The notes beneath the pieces were generated by a model that worked only from the letters and a program-made list of their open reading frames with translations, made no database searches and was not told the origin of the DNA. Positions 3,686 to 49,647 of a stretch of DNA of 64,000 bases are shown here, piece after piece. The stretch spans positions 26,725 to 90,724 of the IMG/VR virus record IMGVR_UViG_3300034418_007766; one strand, written 5' to 3'. Within the stretch, counting starts at the first letter, position 1, and the number at the start of each line of letters is the position of its first letter. Source of the stretch: a virus. The translations under genes and the position numbers were made by a program.

Positions 3686-4057
3686 TTACTTCTTGCTAGT
3701 TCCGGCGTAAAGTCCAAACCATGCTGCTCCAGCACCTACAACCACACTGATTAGCCCTGATTGTTCCAGTGTTGGATCTGGCAGTTCCATATACCAAACT
3801 ACACATCTGTATAACAAGTAAATGTATGTTGAGATAAAGATACGTGGAAAGATTCTCCAAGCATCTACAGCCCTTGCTAGGTGTATTACTTTAGCATAAG
3901 GATTAGGTCCTAGGTCTTTTACACTTGTATCTACTTCTAGGTCTAGTTTTACTTTTTTGGTAGCTGTTGTGCTACTTGCTGGAACTACAACTTCAGCGTC
4001 TGCTTCTGTTTCTTCTACTGGTGCTGCGTCCAAGTCTTCAAGTTTTCTTCTTGGCAT
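3686..4057 (-). CDS. two-TM membrane protein, holin candidate
   Basis: Two C-terminal hydrophobic helices; lies in the lysis cluster. Confidence 0.5.
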   Translation of the reverse strand: MPRRKLEDLDAAPVEETEADAEVVVPASSTTATKKVKLDLEVDTSVKDLGPNPYAKVIHLARAVDAWRIFPRIFISTYIYLLYRCVVWYMELPDPTLEQSGLISVVVGAGAAWFGLYAGTSKK

Positions 4058-41926: not shown

Positions 41927-42111
41927 GATGCCAATGCCTCTTTGTAACCAGCATATACAAGGCTTTGAAAATAGCTCTCAGCTTTTTTGCGATCGTGAAA
42001 CTCTTTGCTGGTTTCAAAATCCAACATATCATATTCGTTGAATACAGCACCGTTTTTGGTTACATCTACTGTGATTGATCGTTTGTTACGTTGTAAGACA
42101 CATGTTTTCAT
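41923..42111 (-). CDS. hypothetical protein
   Basis: Coupled ORF. Confidence 0.55.
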   Translation of the reverse strand: MKTCVLQRNKRSITVDVTKNGAVFNEYDMLDFETSKEFHDRKKAESYFQSLVYAGYKEALAS

Positions 42112-43291
42112 TTGCGTTCACCAGTTTTGCTATTACAGGGTTGACATCCATAAGAGACACTTTGCTCTTACTGTCTAGCTTACTTATAACATACTTACGC
42201 AAGTTGTCAAGTTCTTTTCTTGAATTTATTCGCCAATTTTTGTTTTTTATTTCTTCTAGATGCTGTGTTTCCATGAACTTTCGCACTTCGTTATCTATTA
42301 CACCAGTGCCTAAATGTTCTAACAAATAGTTTTTTTGCTGCCTATCAAGTAAACTGATATTGTAAAAAATTGGGTCATGCAAAAAATTACACACAAGATT
42401 ATCTATATCAAATCCTATGCTATCACACCATTTCTCCATGTTTGTGCCGCTCAAACTGTTAAGCAATCCTACTGTGTATGTAATTTTAACATCAACATCT
42501 TGTTGCATAGCGTGTTTGAAATTTTCTTCAAGTCTTCTCCATTTTGCAGGAGGACGTTGATATTCATAATTAGCACCTACATCATCTATACTGTAATGTA
42601 ATTGTATACTTTGAAACTTTGAAAATATTTCAAGCAGCCTATTTGTAAGTTTGAATGAGCCATTGGTGTGGAATTTGATCCAAATATTTTTTGCTCTATC
42701 GGTTTCAATCAAATGATCTAATAGCGTGTAGTGATCGTTGATCAAAAAAGGTTCGCCACCGCTGAGATACAACACTTCTAAGTTTTCACTGATGTTTACA
42801 ATGCTATCCCAGTTTTGTTTTTGTGTTACCCAATCTTTACCGTAGCTAGGATTAATAACTTGTCCAAAAATTTCTAGTTCAGTTTGTTCCCATTTTTTTG
42901 TAAATTCGCTATTGCAAATTTTACATTGTAGATTACAGTGATTGCCCAATTTAACATCAAACAACACAGGGTTAGGTGCATCTAATGAGTTCATAAGGTG
43001 CAAGTGTTTGCCATGCACCTGCATTTCTCTTTGACGTCTACTCAATATTCCTTGTGATTCTTGCGTAAAGCATTTACTACAACCATCGGGTTCTTCGCCG
43101 TTGATATACTGTTGTCTTAACCTAGTATATTCATGATTGTTCCATACACTTTCTAGTGTGGTGTTTGCATCATTTAAGTCAGTTTTACTGCCATCTTCAT
43201 TTACAAAGTCATACTTGTATTCTGCACAAGGTCTAACAAACCCTGTTGCACACACTTCAATTTGTGTCCATGGCACAATACATTTACGCAT
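42086..43291 (-). CDS. radical SAM protein with N-terminal SPASM/twitch-like domain
   Basis: CIVPW...RPC...CSKC, then CNLQCKIC and SGGEPF. Confidence 0.85.
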   Translation of the reverse strand: MRKCIVPWTQIEVCATGFVRPCAEYKYDFVNEDGSKTDLNDANTTLESVWNNHEYTRLRQQYINGEEPDGCSKCFTQESQGILSRRQREMQVHGKHLHLMNSLDAPNPVLFDVKLGNHCNLQCKICNSEFTKKWEQTELEIFGQVINPSYGKDWVTQKQNWDSIVNISENLEVLYLSGGEPFLINDHYTLLDHLIETDRAKNIWIKFHTNGSFKLTNRLLEIFSKFQSIQLHYSIDDVGANYEYQRPPAKWRRLEENFKHAMQQDVDVKITYTVGLLNSLSGTNMEKWCDSIGFDIDNLVCNFLHDPIFYNISLLDRQQKNYLLEHLGTGVIDNEVRKFMETQHLEEIKNKNWRINSRKELDNLRKYVISKLDSKSKVSLMDVNPVIAKLVNANENMCLTT

Positions 43292-44771
43292 CTAATTTTT
43301 CCATCAATTGTTTATAATAAAACTTATCATAAAAATATTTAAACTTTTCGTTTTCTGATCCTTCTATGTCATTGCAATATGCATCATATAAACTCCAATA
43401 TTTCCAAACTTTAGGAGGAAATGTGTTGTGTTCAGCAACTGCTTGATTAGCAAAGTCTGCTATCTTTTGTGCTTGTAAAGAGTTTGAGATATCTCCGCTG
43501 TCATTTCTTGTCCATGTCAAGCCATCTATTGTATAGTTGTAATGGTTAGGATTGCGATCTATAGCACTGTCAAACATAAAATTATTTAGGTCGCCAAGAT
43601 CCTTTAATAACAAAGCATTGAAACTCAGCGCATCTATATAATTGTTACCTTCTTTGCTATACCAATTTACCATGTCAAGCACATCTTGCTCGTTATCATA
43701 AGGCAATCCTACAACATAGCCTGCATTTACATACACATCGTCTGCCCAAACCTGTTTACAATTTTTCATGCCTTGTATTTTAATATCTTTATTATCACCT
43801 TTGCCTACAATTTTGCTGGTTTTGTTGTTCCAAGTTTCTAGTCCATAATAAATTCTACGCAATCCAATATCATACATTAACTGTGCTTGATGCTTTTGTT
43901 TTGCAACCAAGTCCATGCGAACATATGCTTCAAAATAAGGTTGGTAATCTAAACTTTGTATTACCTCATTTACAAGTTCTAATTTTGGCGTGTAATCATT
44001 GAAAGTGTCGTCAACGATATAATACTGATATACACCCCATTTTTTATAATTTTCACTGAGCTCTTTGAACAACACATCTTGATATTTGGTGTAGTCTTTG
44101 GTATTTTGTCCGATGTGTGGATAACTACAAAATGCGCAATTAAATATGCATCCTCTGCTAATTTCTATTGTAAGTATTTCTTCACTGTTTATGCAATCAG
44201 TATCTTCATAAGAAACCGATGTATTAGCAAAATTATGATTTGGACCATGCCCACGTGGATCGTAGTTATAGATGTGTTCACGCTTGCCTTGTAGATAGTC
44301 TACAAATTGATTTTCACAAAAGCCAACAAAAATTCTATCCCATTCTGTATCTCGAACGTATTCAAAAACTTTACTGCCTCCAACAATGCATTCTGTGCGA
44401 TTATTAACTTGCTTGACATAATCTATGTAGCGGTTTTGATTGCCCAAGAAAATTTGCCAACTCATGCCTTCGTTGAAGTTAACTGTTCTTGTGTCTCTGC
44501 TTTCAGGTCCAAGTAAATATTGATTTCCGCCAAATGTTCTCCATGGAAACCATGTAATACTCCAGCCAACACAAACAGTATTTGATCCAACTGTTTTGTC
44601 TATTATTGTTTGGTATTGTTCCCAAGTAATACAACTTGAAAAGTCGATAACAATTGCACTGTGCCCTTGCGCTCTAGCTAGATTGGCAATTTTATAGGCA
44701 CCTAATCCTCTTTGCGGTGAAAGTTTATCTGCAATGTCAGTAAAAATTACAACATCATAGGTCATTTTCAA
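43284..44771 (-). CDS. B12-binding-like radical SAM protein
   Basis: EISRGCIFNCAFC, DDTFND and GLET motifs. Confidence 0.85.
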   Translation of the reverse strand: MKMTYDVVIFTDIADKLSPQRGLGAYKIANLARAQGHSAIVIDFSSCITWEQYQTIIDKTVGSNTVCVGWSITWFPWRTFGGNQYLLGPESRDTRTVNFNEGMSWQIFLGNQNRYIDYVKQVNNRTECIVGGSKVFEYVRDTEWDRIFVGFCENQFVDYLQGKREHIYNYDPRGHGPNHNFANTSVSYEDTDCINSEEILTIEISRGCIFNCAFCSYPHIGQNTKDYTKYQDVLFKELSENYKKWGVYQYYIVDDTFNDYTPKLELVNEVIQSLDYQPYFEAYVRMDLVAKQKHQAQLMYDIGLRRIYYGLETWNNKTSKIVGKGDNKDIKIQGMKNCKQVWADDVYVNAGYVVGLPYDNEQDVLDMVNWYSKEGNNYIDALSFNALLLKDLGDLNNFMFDSAIDRNPNHYNYTIDGLTWTRNDSGDISNSLQAQKIADFANQAVAEHNTFPPKVWKYWSLYDAYCNDIEGSENEKFKYFYDKFYYKQLMEKLDA

Positions 44772-45977: not shown

Positions 45978-46054
45978 TGGTCCGGGTGGAAGGATTTGAA
46001 CCTCCGACATCTACGCCCCAAACGTAGCGGTCTACCAGACTGACCTACACCCGG
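45978..46054 (-). tRNA. tRNA-Pro(UGG)
   Basis: CTACG-TT-TGG-GG-CGTAG, ACCA end. Confidence 0.95.
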
Positions 46055-46058
46055 AATA

Positions 46059-46133
46059 TGGTGGGCCCGGAGGAAGTCGAATCCCCAATCGATGCGTTAT
46101 GAGCGCACTGCTTTACCATTAAGCTACAAGCCC
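46059..46133 (-). tRNA. tRNA with CAU anticodon, probably Ile2 (lysidine type); elongator Met not excluded
   Basis: GTGCG-CT-CAT-AA-CGCAT; GGGC acceptor; paired 1:72, so not an initiator. Confidence 0.85.
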
Positions 46134-46145
46134 TATGTTACATAT

Positions 46146-46230
46146 TGGCACAGGTGGCGAGATTCGAACTCGCTCAGCTAACGCACTGGTTTTGGAGACC
46201 AGCCTACCTCTCCGACTGTAGCGCACCTGC
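46146..46230 (-). tRNA. tRNA-Trp(CCA) with enlarged variable region
   Basis: CTGGT-CT-CCA-AA-ACCAG, 12-nt variable region, G73-CCA. Confidence 0.85.
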
Positions 46231-46246
46231 ATAAAACTTTTTTTAA

Positions 46247-46322
46247 AACTACACTATCTTTAGCCCTTTCAAAGCCTCTGTCTCTGCAACGACACCTTAT
46301 TGCAGTAAGGTGTAGTGTAGTC
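46247..46322 (-). ncRNA. structured element with pseudoknot potential between the attenuator and tRNA-Trp
   Basis: GACTACACTA/TAGTGTAGTT outer stem; CACCTTA/TAAGGTG hairpin whose loop CTGCAA is complementary to downstream TTGCAG. Confidence 0.55.
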
Positions 46323-46324
46323 AT

Positions 46325-46359
46325 AAAAAAAGCCCCTAACATTATTAGTGCTAGGGGCT
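46325..46359 (-). terminator. intrinsic terminator of the putative attenuator
   Basis: AGCCCCTAGCA-7nt-TGTTAGGGGCT followed by TTTTTT. Confidence 0.88.
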
Positions 46360-46387
46360 GTTGAAATAACTTTTTTATAAAGTCACG

Positions 46388-46450
46388 TCAAGACATACCC
46401 CACTTTCGTGATGGCCAATATATTATACCTATTGTGTTAGTCTTGATCAT
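46388..46450 (-). CDS. 20-aa leader peptide MIKTNTIGIIYWPSRKWGMS
   Basis: GAAGGA RBS; codons ATA x3, TGG x2, CCA, TCA; overlaps the antiterminator arm. Confidence 0.7.
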   Translation of the reverse strand: MIKTNTIGIIYWPSRKWGMS

Positions 46451-46470
46451 GTAAAAAATTCCTTCATTGT

Positions 46471-46476
46471 TATTTA
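46471..46476 (-). promoter_or_regulatory. late promoter TAAATA upstream of the leader peptide
   Basis: GATAAATA 20 nt before the leader ATG. Confidence 0.55.
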
Positions 46477-46477
46477 T

Positions 46478-46688
46478 CTGTGATAGGTTGGATTAAGGAT
46501 TACCAACAACCGCCTCAACAGATCCTGTCAATCAATTCAGCGGAGCCTAGCATCGGATAGTTACTTCCAAAATACGCATCTTCATGTCTCCATGCTCATG
46601 CGCTGCCACTACAGCTACTAGCCAAGTTACTGCCTCTGTAAAGCAGCGTTTCCTTGCACTATCTAACTCGGACCGTCGTCTTTGTTAT
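46478..46688 (-). ncRNA. unassigned ~200-nt multi-branched structured RNA
   Basis: No minus-strand ORF, GC-richer than flanks, about 8 nested helices found by hand, own sigma70 promoter. Confidence 0.65.
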
Positions 46689-46694
46689 GTTTAT

Positions 46695-46723
46695 AATATA
46701 GCAAAAGAATCACCAAAGGTCAA
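46695..46723 (-). promoter_or_regulatory. sigma70-type promoter
   Basis: TTGACC-17-TATATT. Confidence 0.7.
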
Positions 46724-46728
46724 CCTTT

Positions 46729-47373
46729 TTATTGCCAAGAAACAAAAAAATCTTCATCTTTTTTGTAAAATTTTTCAATATATTCTTCATAGGTAATAAT
46801 TCGCGGACCCCAGTCCTGTAATGTATATCCATTGCTTTTATACATTACATTTTGATAACAACTTTCTTGTTCGTCTGGATATATTCTAACAAGGCCGGCA
46901 TCAAATGCTTGCCATTTGTCTGTGACACTCATCCAGCTACGTTTCACATTTTCCCACCAAGGTTGTTTTTCAATTTGATATCCACGCTTGCGTCTTTGCA
47001 TACTAAAAAACAATAAATCGTATTCAAATCCTAATACTTGTTCTACCAATGGAATTACATGATTAGCTAGTTGATCATGATGATACGTAATTTTTCTTGG
47101 ACTACGCCATTCAGGAAACATATAAGTTCTGTTGAGTATTCTAGCAACGTGTGGAGATAATTCAAGCAACCCGCTAAAGTGCCAAAGTTTATCGTCTAAG
47201 TATGCAATCCAAAAAAGTTTATGATCCTCAACTACACAGCGTTCTTTTGTATAATTTTCTCGTAGCCAATTATCTTCTTCTAAGCACTTTTGTCTTACTT
47301 TTTCAAATTCAACATTGTCATGATCAAATACATGTAATCTTACTCTACCTGAAGATACAATTTCATTTATCAT
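46729..47373 (-). CDS. hypothetical protein, possible GNAT-like fold
   Basis: 214 aa coupled to the desaturase; ARILNRTYMFPEWR is only weakly GNAT-like. Confidence 0.55.
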   Translation of the reverse strand: MINEIVSSGRVRLHVFDHDNVEFEKVRQKCLEEDNWLRENYTKERCVVEDHKLFWIAYLDDKLWHFSGLLELSPHVARILNRTYMFPEWRSPRKITYHHDQLANHVIPLVEQVLGFEYDLLFFSMQRRKRGYQIEKQPWWENVKRSWMSVTDKWQAFDAGLVRIYPDEQESCYQNVMYKSNGYTLQDWGPRIITYEEYIEKFYKKDEDFFVSWQ

Positions 47374-48148
47374 AATAATTTACACCTTTGAGTGAATCAG
47401 GTTTTGCTAGTTTTTCAATCAACCATTTACCAAAGTCAGGTTGTCCGCGGTTCCATCCAAACGCATAACTCCAAGGTGCCGCATGGTGATTGTTGTGCCA
47501 GCCTTCTCCCCAAGAGTATAATCCCATAATAAATGTGTTCTTAGAATCATCGTTTGTGTCAGTATCTTTATGTCCAAACATATGGGCACCTACAGTAATC
47601 CAGGATATAGTATGTAAACAAAACATTGTGCTTACTAGGTATCCATACATAAACAAGTCAGGATTGATAGCAAACAATAACAATCCCCAGCCAACTAATA
47701 TATGAAAATAGTATTTGTTAAAAAATCTATGATACGGATCTTTTAGTAAATCAATGACTATCCTTGGACTTACATGATGATAAGGCACAAAATTATGCCA
47801 TAATTTAAACTTTTGCCACAAGGTAGAATTTCTAATGCAGTGCGGATCTTTATCAGTGTCTGAATACTTATGGTGTATTCTATGCGTAGCAGTCCATGGA
47901 ATAGTAGGACCAACTGTGTTAATTACAGATAAAAAATGTAATATAATTAATATAAAATTATTTTTTGGTTCCCAAGATTTATGAGAAAAACAACGATGTA
48001 ACCCCATACTGATTCCAACATGCACTACTATCCAAGAAAATAACCACGAGCCAAATAGGTATGCTGCATTAAAGTTAAAAATTAACACCAAGGGTCCGCC
48101 TACATAACAAGCCAATTGAAACATATTTGTTTTTTGATCAACTCTCAT
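47363..48148 (-). CDS. membrane fatty-acid (delta-9 type) desaturase
   Basis: His boxes HRCFSH, HRIHH and GEGWHNNHH. Confidence 0.9.
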   Translation of the reverse strand: MRVDQKTNMFQLACYVGGPLVLIFNFNAAYLFGSWLFSWIVVHVGISMGLHRCFSHKSWEPKNNFILIILHFLSVINTVGPTIPWTATHRIHHKYSDTDKDPHCIRNSTLWQKFKLWHNFVPYHHVSPRIVIDLLKDPYHRFFNKYYFHILVGWGLLLFAINPDLFMYGYLVSTMFCLHTISWITVGAHMFGHKDTDTNDDSKNTFIMGLYSWGEGWHNNHHAAPWSYAFGWNRGQPDFGKWLIEKLAKPDSLKGVNYYDK

Positions 48149-49647
48149 TGGTTGTGTTTGCTTTCTATTTTTTTAGTCACATATAAATCTAACGGATCAG
48201 GATCTGTGTCCGTATCTATTTTTTTGTCATCCCATATATTAACATTTAATTTTAATGCATCTCGTAGGTTTTCCACACTGTATAGTCTGTTCATAATATA
48301 AAAGTTTGGCTCTACTGTAAAGATGTTTTCAGGAGAAAACATTTTGCTACACCACATGCTTGCTTCATAAAAGTTGGTTTGATCGTTTTGCCAAAAGAAA
48401 TAGTGATCGTCAAGTCTATGATGTGCAAGTTTACCAAACTGTTCGTATTCATTTTTTAATGCGTCAATAGTTGATTGATCTGATATTTTGCTGTATCCAT
48501 ACTTGGCCGGATCGTCGCTGAATAAACTATTTGTGTTATCGTTGCTACTGTCGTTGGTTATATCCAAAGGCCACCAATGCCATGTTTCAGTGCGCCAGTT
48601 CTTCTTCATCCATTTTTGAGTTTTATGCCAACTTTTTTCATCTTCTCCTGGTAATCCAGCAATCAATCCAATACTACCTCGATATAAACCTAAATGATCT
48701 AAAAAATACTTTCGAATATTAATTAAACAACGTTTTATTTTACTAGGTGACATACCTTTGCCTATCGCTTTCGCAGCCACAGGATGGAAAGTTTCTACAC
48801 CATAAAAGTGTGCCCATATTCTAGCACGTTTCAATAATTCTTTTTGATATGGCCTAACCACTACTAGGTCAACTCTAACAAAAGCACTGAAGTTTGGTTT
48901 GAATGGCAAACTTTCAACAACGTCTGCTATCATACGCAATTTGTCATCATCATCGTTTACTGTGCTATCAGCAATGATATAATTTTTTACACCATATAAA
49001 TTGTAATTGTTTATTAACTCTTCTCTAACATTTTCAGGATCGCGAAACACACTTTTTTTAAATCCTAAAAAAGCATAACTGCAATATTTACATTTGAATC
49101 TACAGCCTCTACTGAGTTCAATGGTTAGTGCTTCAAACGGTTGTATATGGTCGCTGTGATTGTATGTAACTGTGAGATCTCTGATGCTGTGTGCAGGATA
49201 ATCTGTGTCTGCATTCACCAGCATTGTCATACCATTGTGTATCATAGTATGTTTTGGAGGTGGTCCGTTGTTGAACAGATAATCAATGATAGGGTCAGCT
49301 GCATGTTCAAAAAATCCTGTGCAAACTAAATCAAACCCTTCGTATTTTTGGAATGGTTGTTGTCCACCTGCGAAATATTTTCTACCAGGAAAAGTTTTTT
49401 TGAGCCATTGCACATATTCTCCAATAATGTCTTGAAGCATCCATGTATAACTAAATGCAAATGCAACAGTGTCTGGTGTAACAATTTTACTTACATACTC
49501 TTTGAGTTTTTGGATATCCCATTGCTCAACAAAGTCTATCACTTCTACTTCAAAACCCATATCACGCAGAATGTTTGCAGTCCTATAAGCACCACTTGAT
49601 CTACGTTGAAACTGACTTGCATTGAATAAAACTATGTGGCCGTGCAT
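48145..49647 (-). CDS. B12-binding-like radical SAM protein
   Basis: ELSRGCRFKCKYC, DSTVND and GVET motifs; paralogue of 43284-44771. Confidence 0.85.
   Translation of the reverse strand: MHGHIVLFNASQFQRRSSGAYRTANILRDMGFEVEVIDFVEQWDIQKLKEYVSKIVTPDTVAFAFSYTWMLQDIIGEYVQWLKKTFPGRKYFAGGQQPFQKYEGFDLVCTGFFEHAADPIIDYLFNNGPPPKHTMIHNGMTMLVNADTDYPAHSIRDLTVTYNHSDHIQPFEALTIELSRGCRFKCKYCSYAFLGFKKSVFRDPENVREELINNYNLYGVKNYIIADSTVNDDDDKLRMIADVVESLPFKPNFSAFVRVDLVVVRPYQKELLKRARIWAHFYGVETFHPVAAKAIGKGMSPSKIKRCLINIRKYFLDHLGLYRGSIGLIAGLPGEDEKSWHKTQKWMKKNWRTETWHWWPLDITNDSSNDNTNSLFSDDPAKYGYSKISDQSTIDALKNEYEQFGKLAHHRLDDHYFFWQNDQTNFYEASMWCSKMFSPENIFTVEPNFYIMNRLYSVENLRDALKLNVNIWDDKKIDTDTDPDPLDLYVTKKIESKHNQ

What the first reader, a model, noticed from the sequence alone, without database searches (positions are those of the whole stretch)
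46478..46723. Unassigned ~200-nt multi-junction ncRNA with its own sigma70 promoter, upstream of the attenuator
Seen: TTGACC-17-TATATT, then a non-coding, GC-richer stretch that pairs by hand into a closed multibranch fold. GATAG/CTATC closes it. The arms are CAAG/CTTG topped by CTGCTTT/GAGGCAG; CTAGTA/TGCTAG enclosing three hairpins (GCTG/CAGC, GCAT-GAG-CATG-GAGA-CATG-AAG-ATGC with a GNRA loop, TTGGA/TCCGA); CCGCT/GGCGG topped by TTGACAG/CTGTTGA; and GTTGG/CCAAC. Several G:U pairs favour the minus strand. Inference: a stable phage RNA co-transcribed with the tRNA array, possibly a ribozyme, processing element or protein decoy. It does not match tmRNA, SRP or RNase P signatures that I can recognise.
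Basis: partly seen in the sequence, partly recalled or inferred. Interest (0 to 1): 0.75.

Follow-up and report, generated by a model that had tools for sequence, protein, structure and literature searches.

The report
Divergent manA-family RNA gene in phage
The flagged stretch is a real, separately promoted gene for a folded RNA of about 210 bases in an uncultured freshwater giant phage, but it belongs to the already catalogued manA RNA family, whose members were recently reported to build RNA-only rings and cages.

Summary
The promoter TTGACC-17-TATATT (46723-46695, minus strand) and the multi-helix fold are there, and 63 pairs are backed by covariation. One helix had to be re-registered. 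The RNA is not unassigned. Rfam manA (RF01745) matches 46477-46682 over the whole model at 37 bits, below the family cut-off of 55.2, E 2e-9 for the genome. The copy at the same site in near-identical phages scores 58 bits, over the cut-off. I file it as a divergent 'type A' branch of manA.

Among 79 distinct relatives from IMG/VR, loop L8 and loop L9 switch together through seven word pairs, and L5 and L7 covary as well. A 2026 cryo-EM preprint reports these same loop pairs as the contacts that join manA copies into pentamers and cages.

In 84 of 88 contexts the promoter is kept. In 56 of 86 a terminator-like hairpin follows within 60 nt. So it looks like a gene of its own, not a leader. Here it runs instead into a small ORF, a terminator and tRNA-Trp. 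Contigs from four freshwater RNA libraries hold it.

The scan found the same thing before on other DNA.

The parts
46695..46723 (-). sigma70-type promoter: -35 TTGACC (46723-46718), 17-nt spacer, TG-extended -10 TATATT (46700-46695)
   Evidence: 10 of 12 matches, TG present. Both hexamers are conserved while the spacer varies in related loci. Promoter-like element found in 84 of 88 contexts.
46478..46691 (-). manA-family RNA, divergent 'type A'. Position n of alignment A3 equals window 46692-n.
   Evidence: Rfam RF01745 matches 46477-46682 at 37.0 bits, model positions 1-192 of 192. My model R1 scores 246.5 bits. Covariation.
46482..46663 (-). closing helix P1 (GAUAG 46663-46659 with CUAUC 46486-46482), which encloses P2-P9
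   Evidence: It is invariant in the A3 set, so it is uninformative there. It is kept in all A6 rows that have letters at these columns.
46607..46611 (-). loop L5 (word UAGU), partner of L7
   Evidence: the L5/L7 middle position is A-U in 55, G-C in 13, G.U in 6 and mismatched in 4 of 78 RNAs.
46587..46590 (-). GNRA tetraloop GAGA closing P6
   Evidence: The loop is kept while the stem beneath it changes completely in type B.
46558..46565 (-). loop L7 (AGUAACUA; word ACUA pairs with L5)
   Evidence: UAAC is conserved in the Rfam consensus.
46523..46527 (-). loop L8 (CAGGA; word AGGA pairs with L9)
46492..46502 (-). loop L9 (UAAUCCUUAAU; word UCCU at 46499-46496 pairs with L8)
   Evidence: 34 of 34 RNAs with UCCU in L9 carry AGGA in P8.
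46471..46478 (-). GATAAATA word directly after the RNA; possibly a T4-late-type promoter (consensus recalled, not tested)
   Evidence: 4 matches in the window, all on the minus strand, and the count is not above chance. ATAAATA lies within 220 nt downstream in 75 of 86 contexts.
46388..46450 (-). 20-codon ORF between the RNA and the terminator. It is the subject of another note and is context only.
46322..46359 (-). intrinsic-terminator-like hairpin plus T tract. It is the first terminator after the RNA in this phage.
   Evidence: An RNA-library contig covers 46308-46670.
46146..46230 (-). tRNA-Trp, first gene of the downstream tRNA array

Best explanation
Window 46478-46691 (minus strand) is a gene for an RNA of about 210 nt of the manA family, in a divergent branch that I call type A. 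Host-type RNA polymerase would start about 7 nt after the -10 element, near 46688 (inferred).

The RNA folds into a 5' hairpin (P0) and a closing helix P1. P1 holds the arm P2/P3, a three-hairpin arm (P4 with P5, P6 and P7), the long arm P8 and the hairpin P9 (shown by covariation). Two loop-loop contacts are kept by coordinated changes: L5 with L7, and L8 with L9 (shown).

The cryo-EM preprint on manA reports L5-L7' and L8-L9' as contacts between copies that build pentamers, decamers and a 60-mer cage. The most likely working is therefore that this RNA is a product in its own right that assembles with copies of itself into a closed RNA-only particle during infection (inferred by analogy, not shown for this variant). 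What the particle does is unknown.

In most relatives the gene ends at its own terminator. In this phage that terminator is missing. The transcript would run on through a short ORF to the terminator at 46359-46331, and some of it perhaps into the tRNA-Trp array.

My odds: manA family about 0.9, stand-alone product about 0.75, self-assembly through these loops about 0.5.
For: Family:
- RF01745 matches over the full model at 37 bits, E 7.4e-8 in 801 nt and 2e-9 for the genome. None of the 14 control genomes gives a match.
- Four sister contigs have flanks 90-92% identical to the window's (120 of 133 and 256 of 279 columns) and carry a 58-bit copy at the same site, over the cut-off.
- There is a score gradient: type A 35-44 bits, type B 53-58, type C 57-68.
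- Conserved consensus letters are present: AGUG, UAA, UAAC, GGUA..UAAUCC and CAC.

Structure.

Loop contacts:
- 74 of the 79 distinct RNAs have a UC-type L9. In 67 of these 74 the exact reverse complement of L9 positions 4-7 lies in the RNA's own P8. The classes are UCCU/AGGA 34 of 34, UCAU/AUGA 11 of 11, UCUC/GAGA 10 of 10, UCAG/CUGA 8 of 8, UCUG/CAGA 3 of 3 and UCGC/GCGA 1 of 1. UCAC pairs with GUGG through a G.U in 7.
- 0 of 10000 permutations of L9 among classes reach the observed complementarity.
- L081 and L126 differ at roughly a dozen of about 208 positions, yet switch AUGA/UCAU to GAGA/UCUC together.
- The Rfam consensus itself has complementary words, aCUgu in L8 and acAgu in L9.
- For L5/L7, 74 of 78 pair at the varying position, with both A-U and G-C seen.
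- The preprint 10.64898/2026.07.01.735769 names L5-L7', L8-L9' and an L6 GNRA contact (section 8 read in full, other passages by term search). L6 here is GAGA.

Stand-alone gene:
- Promoter in 84 of 88 contexts.
- Terminator-like hairpin within 220 nt in 69 of 86 contexts, and at 20-59 nt in 56 of them.
- The neighbouring genes differ: gp23 capsid or a small CSD-like gene upstream, and a gene of unknown family, gp32, hsp20 or tRNAs downstream.
- One copy per contig in contigs of up to 256 kb.

RNA libraries: contigs of four freshwater metatranscriptome runs from four studies lie on the RNA without a single difference. They cover 46022-46672, 46067-46672, 46308-46670 and 46462-46673.
Against: - The window's own copy is 18 bits under Rfam's cut-off.
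- Its folding energy is ordinary.
- Nothing here tells contacts between copies from contacts within one molecule.
- 5 of 79 RNAs (L9 without UC) show no L8-L9 complement, 7 need a G.U, and 4 of 78 mismatch in L5/L7.
- The sequences are related to one another, so the counts overstate the number of independent events.
- In this phage no terminator follows the RNA directly, and two RNA-library contigs span the RNA and tRNAs. Here it could be the 5' part of a longer transcript.
- A structured RNA followed by a terminator is also how a transcriptional riboswitch looks.
- All four contigs stop at 46670-46673, about 15 nt inside the predicted RNA. That spot is next to a polymorphic site (A3 columns 22-23), so the stop may be an assembly break and not an RNA end. 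The 5' end is therefore not fixed.
- The cage report is an unreviewed preprint on other manA variants, studied in vitro.
Confidence: 0.6

Rival explanations
1. It is a cis-acting leader (riboswitch or attenuator), as Rfam classes manA. The fold senses a ligand or condition and decides whether transcription passes the next terminator into the downstream genes, here the small ORF and the tRNA-Trp array.
For: Weinberg et al. 2010 (PMC2864571, passages read) rate manA as probably cis-regulatory and as a riboswitch candidate. A terminator-like hairpin follows the RNA in 69 of 86 contexts. In the window the first terminator lies 120 nt further on, and RNA-library contigs span the RNA and tRNAs. The arrangement 'RNA, then small ORF, terminator and tRNA-Trp' recurs in four loci with three different RNA classes.
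Against: The downstream genes are unrelated across loci. In 75 of 86 contexts an ATAAATA word, and in 48 of 86 a second RNA motif (freshwater-2-like), lie between the terminator and the next gene. This suggests that the next gene has its own start. I saw no pairing that competes between the terminator and the RNA's 3' part; that was by eye, not computed. No ligand is known for manA.
Confidence: 0.2
2. It is a stand-alone RNA that works as a monomer, for instance as a protein-binding scaffold or decoy. L5-L7 and L8-L9 are then tertiary contacts inside one molecule that lock the fold.
For: The same covariation fits pairing within one molecule. P8 and P9 are neighbours on the junction. Weinberg et al. 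2010 draw a possible pseudoknot in manA (figure legend only).
Against: The preprint reports these loop pairs as contacts between subunits in the variants it solved. I could not see its figures or sequences.
Confidence: 0.15
3. It is a tRNA-linked element, a processing guide or a ribozyme serving the adjacent tRNA array.
For: tRNA-Trp is the first gene downstream in the window, L038, L111 and L121. Contigs span the RNA and tRNAs.
Against: Only 3 of 95 related loci scanned hold tRNAs near the RNA. There is no Rfam ribozyme or RNase P match. A terminator separates the RNA from the tRNAs.
Confidence: 0.05

Closest known systems
manA RNA motif, Rfam RF01745 (Weinberg et al. 2010, Genome Biol 11:R31, PMC2864571; passages read)
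   Same: Full-length match to the covariance model. Same order of helices. Same conserved letters (AGUG, UAA, GURGUG loop, UAAC loop, GGUA..UAAUCC hairpin, CAC tail). Complementary L8 and L9 words. Found in phages with T4-type capsid genes.
   Different: 37 bits, below the 55.2 cut-off. P3 and distal P8 differ, and the L8/L9 word is AGGA/UCCU instead of the consensus CUG/CAG. It comes from freshwater samples and from relatives of PA5oct-like jumbo phages, not marine cyanophages. It is not in the 5' UTR of a mannose, nucleotide, ibpA or photosynthesis gene. It has its own promoter and, in most relatives, its own terminator.
manA RNA assemblies solved by cryo-EM (bioRxiv 10.64898/2026.07.01.735769; section 8 read in full, other passages by term search; figures and supplements not seen)
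   Same: The loop pairs that the preprint names as subunit contacts (L5-L7', L8-L9', and GNRA L6) are the ones that covary or are conserved here. This holds if helices are numbered in their order along the Rfam model.
   Different: No structure or assembly data exist for this variant. My helix numbering is inferred from that order and was not checked against the preprint's figures.
GOLLD and ROOL large phage RNAs
   Same: Phage-borne, ornate, often beside tRNA genes, and reported to form RNA-only multimers.
   Different: Much larger, and unrelated in sequence. No Rfam match to either anywhere in the window at gathering score, or in 46100-46900 at E up to 10. This is a functional analogy only.
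Transcription-terminating riboswitches
   Same: A structured RNA followed by an intrinsic terminator.
   Different: No ligand and no evident competing antiterminator. The downstream genes are unrelated and appear to have their own promoter-like word.

Membership tests
manA RNA (Rfam RF01745) | Covariance-model score at or above the curated gathering score (55.2 bits) | tested here: not met
   The window copy scores 37.0 bits and is absent at gathering threshold. The copy at the same site in four sister contigs scores 58 bits, over the cut-off.
manA RNA (Rfam RF01745) | Significant full-length match to the model | tested here: met
   Model positions 1-192 of 192. E 7.4e-8 in 801 nt and 2e-9 for the 90.7-kb record, with 0 of 14 control genomes matching.
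manA RNA (Rfam RF01745) | Helix architecture: closing stem; P2/P3 arm; arm with three hairpins; long P8; P9 hairpin | tested here: met
   The structure was derived from these sequences independently and agrees with the Rfam structure line.
manA RNA (Rfam RF01745) | Conserved consensus nucleotides in junctions and loops | tested here: met
   AGUG, UAA, GUAGUG (consensus GUGGUG), UAAC, UG..GGUA..UAAUCC and CAC all align. The CUGAAUAAaCUU stretch is only partly kept.
manA RNA (Rfam RF01745) | Complementary loops L5/L7 and L8/L9 (candidate pseudoknot or kissing loops) | tested here: met
   In the window these are UAGU/ACUA and AGGA/UCCU.
manA RNA (Rfam RF01745) | Position in the 5' UTR of a protein-coding gene (Rfam type Cis-reg) | tested here: not met
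   Downstream lie a 20-codon ORF, a terminator and tRNAs. In most relatives a terminator follows within 60 nt.
manA RNA assemblies (cryo-EM preprint) | Forms pentamer-based closed oligomers | not testable with these tools
   No tool here predicts RNA oligomers. This needs native gel, SEC or cryo-EM.
Riboswitch | Ligand-dependent switch between two folds | not testable with these tools
   No ligand is known. A competing fold was looked for only by eye.
Other catalogued RNAs (tmRNA, RNase P, SRP, GOLLD, ROOL, ribozymes) | Any Rfam match at 46478-46723 | tested here: not met
   Apart from manA and tRNA, the best matches have E of 0.04 or more and lie far under their cut-offs.

The most novel reading that the evidence does not exclude
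The L8/L9 (and L5/L7) words act as assembly 'codes'. Each phage lineage carries one manA-type RNA whose loops fit only its own kind, so RNAs of co-infecting phages cannot co-assemble. The codes are swapped between otherwise near-identical phages as cassettes. That would make the RNA cage a functional, selected particle of jumbo-phage infection, made early from a host-type promoter, and not a test-tube curiosity.
Probability: 0.2. Interest if true: 0.8.

Novelty: new member of a known kind. Interest (0 to 1): 0.42.

Why it matters
manA is catalogued as a leader element of unknown ligand. A 2026 preprint reports that it builds RNA-only cages in vitro, and nobody knows whether that matters in cells. 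This locus and its roughly 80 distinct relatives add three things.
- The family reaches well beyond what Rfam's threshold finds. It extends into freshwater jumbo phages, and some members are invisible to the Rfam model.
- It is organised as a gene of its own.
- The very loops reported to join subunits are kept complementary through at least seven coordinated switches. This is the kind of natural evidence that would make the biological relevance of RNA self-assembly testable.

For the window itself the result is sobering. The 'unassigned' RNA has a name.

Tried and rejected
- Stability alone: z-score -1.06 for the minus strand. This is not evidence.
- Rfam at gathering score: only tRNAs.
- blastn in 'distant' mode of the locus, and of a type C RNA, against 50,697 phage records: no match.
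- Cultured relatives: Vibrio phage 2.275.O, Sinorhizobium phage Phosso and PA5oct have only about 100-120 nt after the capsid gene. They give no match to RF01745 or to R1. RF01745 did match in the same tool on G000-G008.
- My model R1, built from type A only, aligns type C only at the P9 hairpin (14-16.5 bits). Types A/B and C were therefore linked through Rfam, not through R1.
- L8 loops defined by RNAfold were inconsistent. I replaced that approach with the 4-mer test.
- freshwater-2 RNA (RF02980) lies downstream of the RNA in relatives, but the window's record has none.
- GATAAATA occurs 4 times in the window against 4.43 expected. There is no enrichment; only the positions are suggestive.
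- The plus-strand ORF 46584-46796 (70 aa) was rejected. All genes are on the minus strand, and the substitutions follow base pairs.
- RNA libraries: no contig was laid on 46726-46995 in any of the four runs, and contig depths were 133-583 on the RNA against 10 or less on most tRNA contigs. No DNA run was laid, so the shared stop at 46670-46673 is at most a weak hint.
One search lists no joint at this RNA, but contigs cannot show one reliably.
- Genome collection: one hit only, on a 37.8-kb contig of a Hyphomicrobiales MAG. This is a weak host hint and was not followed up.
- Supplements and figures of the papers were not seen. The preprint's sequences and helix maps could confirm or overturn my loop numbering.
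- Searches for prior description: (terms manA RNA/motif/phage; manA/wcaG/RNA motif; RF01745). They returned six papers in all, and none that I read describes a stand-alone gene or loop-word switching.

Full report
WHAT IS THERE. The window is part of a 90.7-kb IMG/VR virus record that CheckV rates 26% complete. Nearly all its long ORFs lie on the minus strand. Its clamp loader is 55% identical to those of PA5oct-like jumbo phages of Pseudomonas. The capsid gene of related loci is 67-70% identical to those of PA5oct, Vibrio phage 2.275.O and Sinorhizobium phage Phosso.

The finding lies between a 214-aa ORF of no known family (46729-47373) and a five-tRNA array that starts with tRNA-Trp (46230-46146). 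On the minus strand the order is:
- promoter TTGACC-17-TATATT with a TG extension (46723-46695);
- the structured stretch (about 46691-46478);
- the word GATAAATA (46478-46471);
- a 20-codon ORF (46450-46388);
- an 11-bp terminator hairpin with a T tract (46359-46331 plus tail);
- the tRNAs.

THE OBSERVATION. The promoter and the fold are real. The single sequence is not unusually stable (z = -1.06), so I looked for relatives.

A degenerate pattern of the last hairpin found 65 stretches in IMG/VR. Twenty-four distinct sequences of the window's type align without ambiguity (A3). On A3, 99.5% of cells pair, against 27-41% when partners are slid.

A covariance model built from A3 (R1) matched all 59 newly fetched loci that I searched (51-244 bits; 82-244 for full-length matches). 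On that alignment 94.6% of cells pair, against 32-44% when slid. There, 37 of 63 pairs change on both sides, and 0 of 500 shuffles reach the observed values. That alignment was fitted to the model, so it leans towards the structure.

One helix needed correction. The register with loop CAGGA pairs in 95.1%.

WHAT IT IS. Rfam at gathering score reports only tRNAs. At E-value threshold the manA model RF01745 matches 46477-46682 over all 192 positions at 37.0 bits, against a cut-off of 55.2, with E 7.4e-8. Per genome the E-value is 2e-9, and none of 14 control genomes matches.

Four contigs carry a 95% identical copy of the neighbouring 214-aa protein. At the same site they hold an RNA that scores 58 bits, over the cut-off. 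Their flanks are 90-92% identical to the window's (120 of 133 and 256 of 279 columns). The interior, P3 to P8, is only 55% identical (78 of 141). So two alleles of one RNA gene, 'type A' here and 'type B' there, sit in the same backbone.

Type A copies score 35-44 bits, type B 53-58, and a third group with the classical contexts (gp32, hsp20) 57-68. Further classes score 30-47 bits. The L078 locus and the whole contig that holds L111 give no Rfam match at all at E up to 0.01, although R1 gives about 141 bits there. I therefore file the window's RNA as a divergent member of manA that the curated threshold misses.

LOOP CONTACTS. I numbered helices in their order along the Rfam model. L5 is then the GURGUG loop, L6 the GNRA loop, L7 the UAAC loop, L8 the tip of the long arm and L9 the last hairpin loop.

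Of the 79 distinct full-length RNAs, 74 have a UC-type L9. In 67 of these 74, positions 4-7 of L9 and a 4-mer in the RNA's own P8 are exact reverse complements:

| L9 word | P8 word | RNAs |
|---|---|---|
| UCCU | AGGA | 34 of 34 |
| UCAU | AUGA | 11 of 11 |
| UCUC | GAGA | 10 of 10 |
| UCAG | CUGA | 8 of 8 |
| UCUG | CAGA | 3 of 3 |
| UCGC | GCGA | 1 of 1 |

Seven UCAC RNAs have GUGG, which pairs through a G.U. Five RNAs with another kind of L9 show no evident partner.

Permuting L9 among 27 loop classes never reached the observed complementarity (0 of 10000). L081 and L126 differ at roughly a dozen of about 208 positions, yet five or six of these differences turn AUGA/UCAU into GAGA/UCUC. 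The Rfam consensus itself carries complementary words, aCUgu in L8 and acAgu in L9.

For L5/L7 the varying position is A-U in 55, G-C in 13, G.U in 6 and mismatched in 4 of 78 RNAs. In the window the words are UAGU/ACUA and AGGA/UCCU, and L6 is GAGA.

The preprint 10.64898/2026.07.01.735769 (section 8 read in full, other passages by term search) reports that manA pentamers are held by kissing loops between subunits. These are L5-L7' and L8-L9' in one variant, and L5-L7', L3-L8' and a GNRA L6-receptor contact in another. These pentamers build decamers and a 60-mer cage. I did not see its figures, so the identity of my numbering with theirs is inferred.

A GENE OF ITS OWN. The promoter hexamers are conserved while the spacer varies, and 84 of 88 distinct contexts have the element. 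A terminator-like hairpin with a T run follows within 220 nt in 69 of 86 contexts, and at 20-59 nt in 56 of them. After it, 75 of 86 contexts have the word ATAAATA. I recall this as the T4 late-promoter core, but I did not test it. In 48 of 86 contexts a freshwater-2-like motif then precedes the next gene.

The neighbours differ from locus to locus. Upstream lies the gp23 capsid gene or a small CSD-like gene. Downstream lies a 120-150-aa protein of no known family, gp32, hsp20 or tRNAs. Each contig tested holds at most one copy, including contigs of 256 kb and 201 kb.

These points favour a stand-alone product over a leader. They do not exclude a terminator-type switch.

THIS PHAGE'S ARRANGEMENT. 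The window and its sister contigs lack the RNA's own terminator. Instead GATAAATA, a ribosome site and a 20-codon ORF follow, then the terminator, a further conserved element and tRNA-Trp.

The same module follows the RNA in L121 and L111, where the RNA belongs to a third class. The ORF stays open there, with one in-frame 3-nt gap, and keeps a K-T...Y/C-W-P-P pattern. tRNAs lie near the RNA in 3 of 95 loci scanned, plus the window. So the tRNA link is a recurrent minority arrangement, not a family trait.

EXPRESSION. Twenty-one of the 24 listed runs that hold part of the stretch are on record as RNA libraries. I laid the four best, all freshwater metatranscriptomes from four studies. Contigs without any difference cover 46022-46672, 46067-46672, 46308-46670 and 46462-46673.

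- The first two span the RNA, the terminator and tRNA-Trp/Met.
- The third ends just past the terminator.
- The fourth is essentially the RNA alone.

Contigs cannot prove a transcript, its ends or its level. The shared stop at 46670-46673 coincides with a polymorphic site, so it may be an assembly break.

COMPARISON AND NOVELTY. This is a new, sub-threshold member of a known family, not a new kind of RNA. It differs from the catalogue entry in four ways: habitat and phage lineage, loop words and P3/P8 details, gene organisation, and the local fusion to a leader/tRNA-Trp module. Earlier follow-ups of this scan reached the same family assignment on other genomes. I reached it from Rfam before reading them. 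What the present work adds is the count of coordinated loop-word switches and the allele swap between near-identical backbones.

VERDICT. The best reading is a stand-alone, self-assembling manA-type RNA, at 0.6 overall: family 0.9, own gene 0.75, assembly 0.5. Interest is moderate.

Noticed in passing
window 46388-46450 (minus); L038, L121, L111 (alignment A7): A 19-20-codon ORF with a ribosome site is conserved in four loci. It has an in-frame 3-nt gap and 1-2 Trp codons, and sits between the manA-type RNA and a terminator that precedes tRNA-Trp. Between the window and L038 all substitutions in it change the residue. It could be a Trp-sensing leader, as another note on this window proposes. 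Given three radical SAM genes nearby, it could also be a small modified peptide.
   Followed up: partly
window 42086-44771 and 48145-49647 (minus): Three radical SAM genes, one with a SPASM domain, and a DUF6071 gene flank the two tRNA arrays.
   Followed up: no
L078 about 3905-4030, also L107, L114, L132, L133, L140, L149 (downstream of the RNA): In some relatives the manA-type RNA is followed not by a terminator but by another conserved stretch of about 100 nt closed by a long stem. It has no Rfam match at E up to 0.01. A further conserved element follows in L016, L128 and L153.
   Followed up: partly
L035 479-562, L063 1959-2028 and five more loci: The freshwater-2 RNA motif (RF02980; two copies over its cut-off, five just under) sits in front of a 120-150-aa gene of no known family that starts MGRP. 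It lies directly after the manA-type RNA's terminator.
   Followed up: partly
L078 12888-13275; L134 9943-10319: Two related phage contigs carry an alphaproteobacterial-type permuted tmRNA gene. This hints at an alphaproteobacterial host, as does the single genome hit on a Hyphomicrobiales MAG contig.
   Followed up: no
window 46146-46230 (minus): The tRNA-Trp is 85 nt long with an extra arm. It scores only 41.8 bits to the tRNA model and was missing from the whole-window Rfam run at gathering score.
   Followed up: no
L124, L097 (alignment A6): These are mosaic RNAs. P4-P7 are of type B, while P8/P9 and the L8/L9 words are of type A. RNA modules therefore recombine between alleles.
   Followed up: partly
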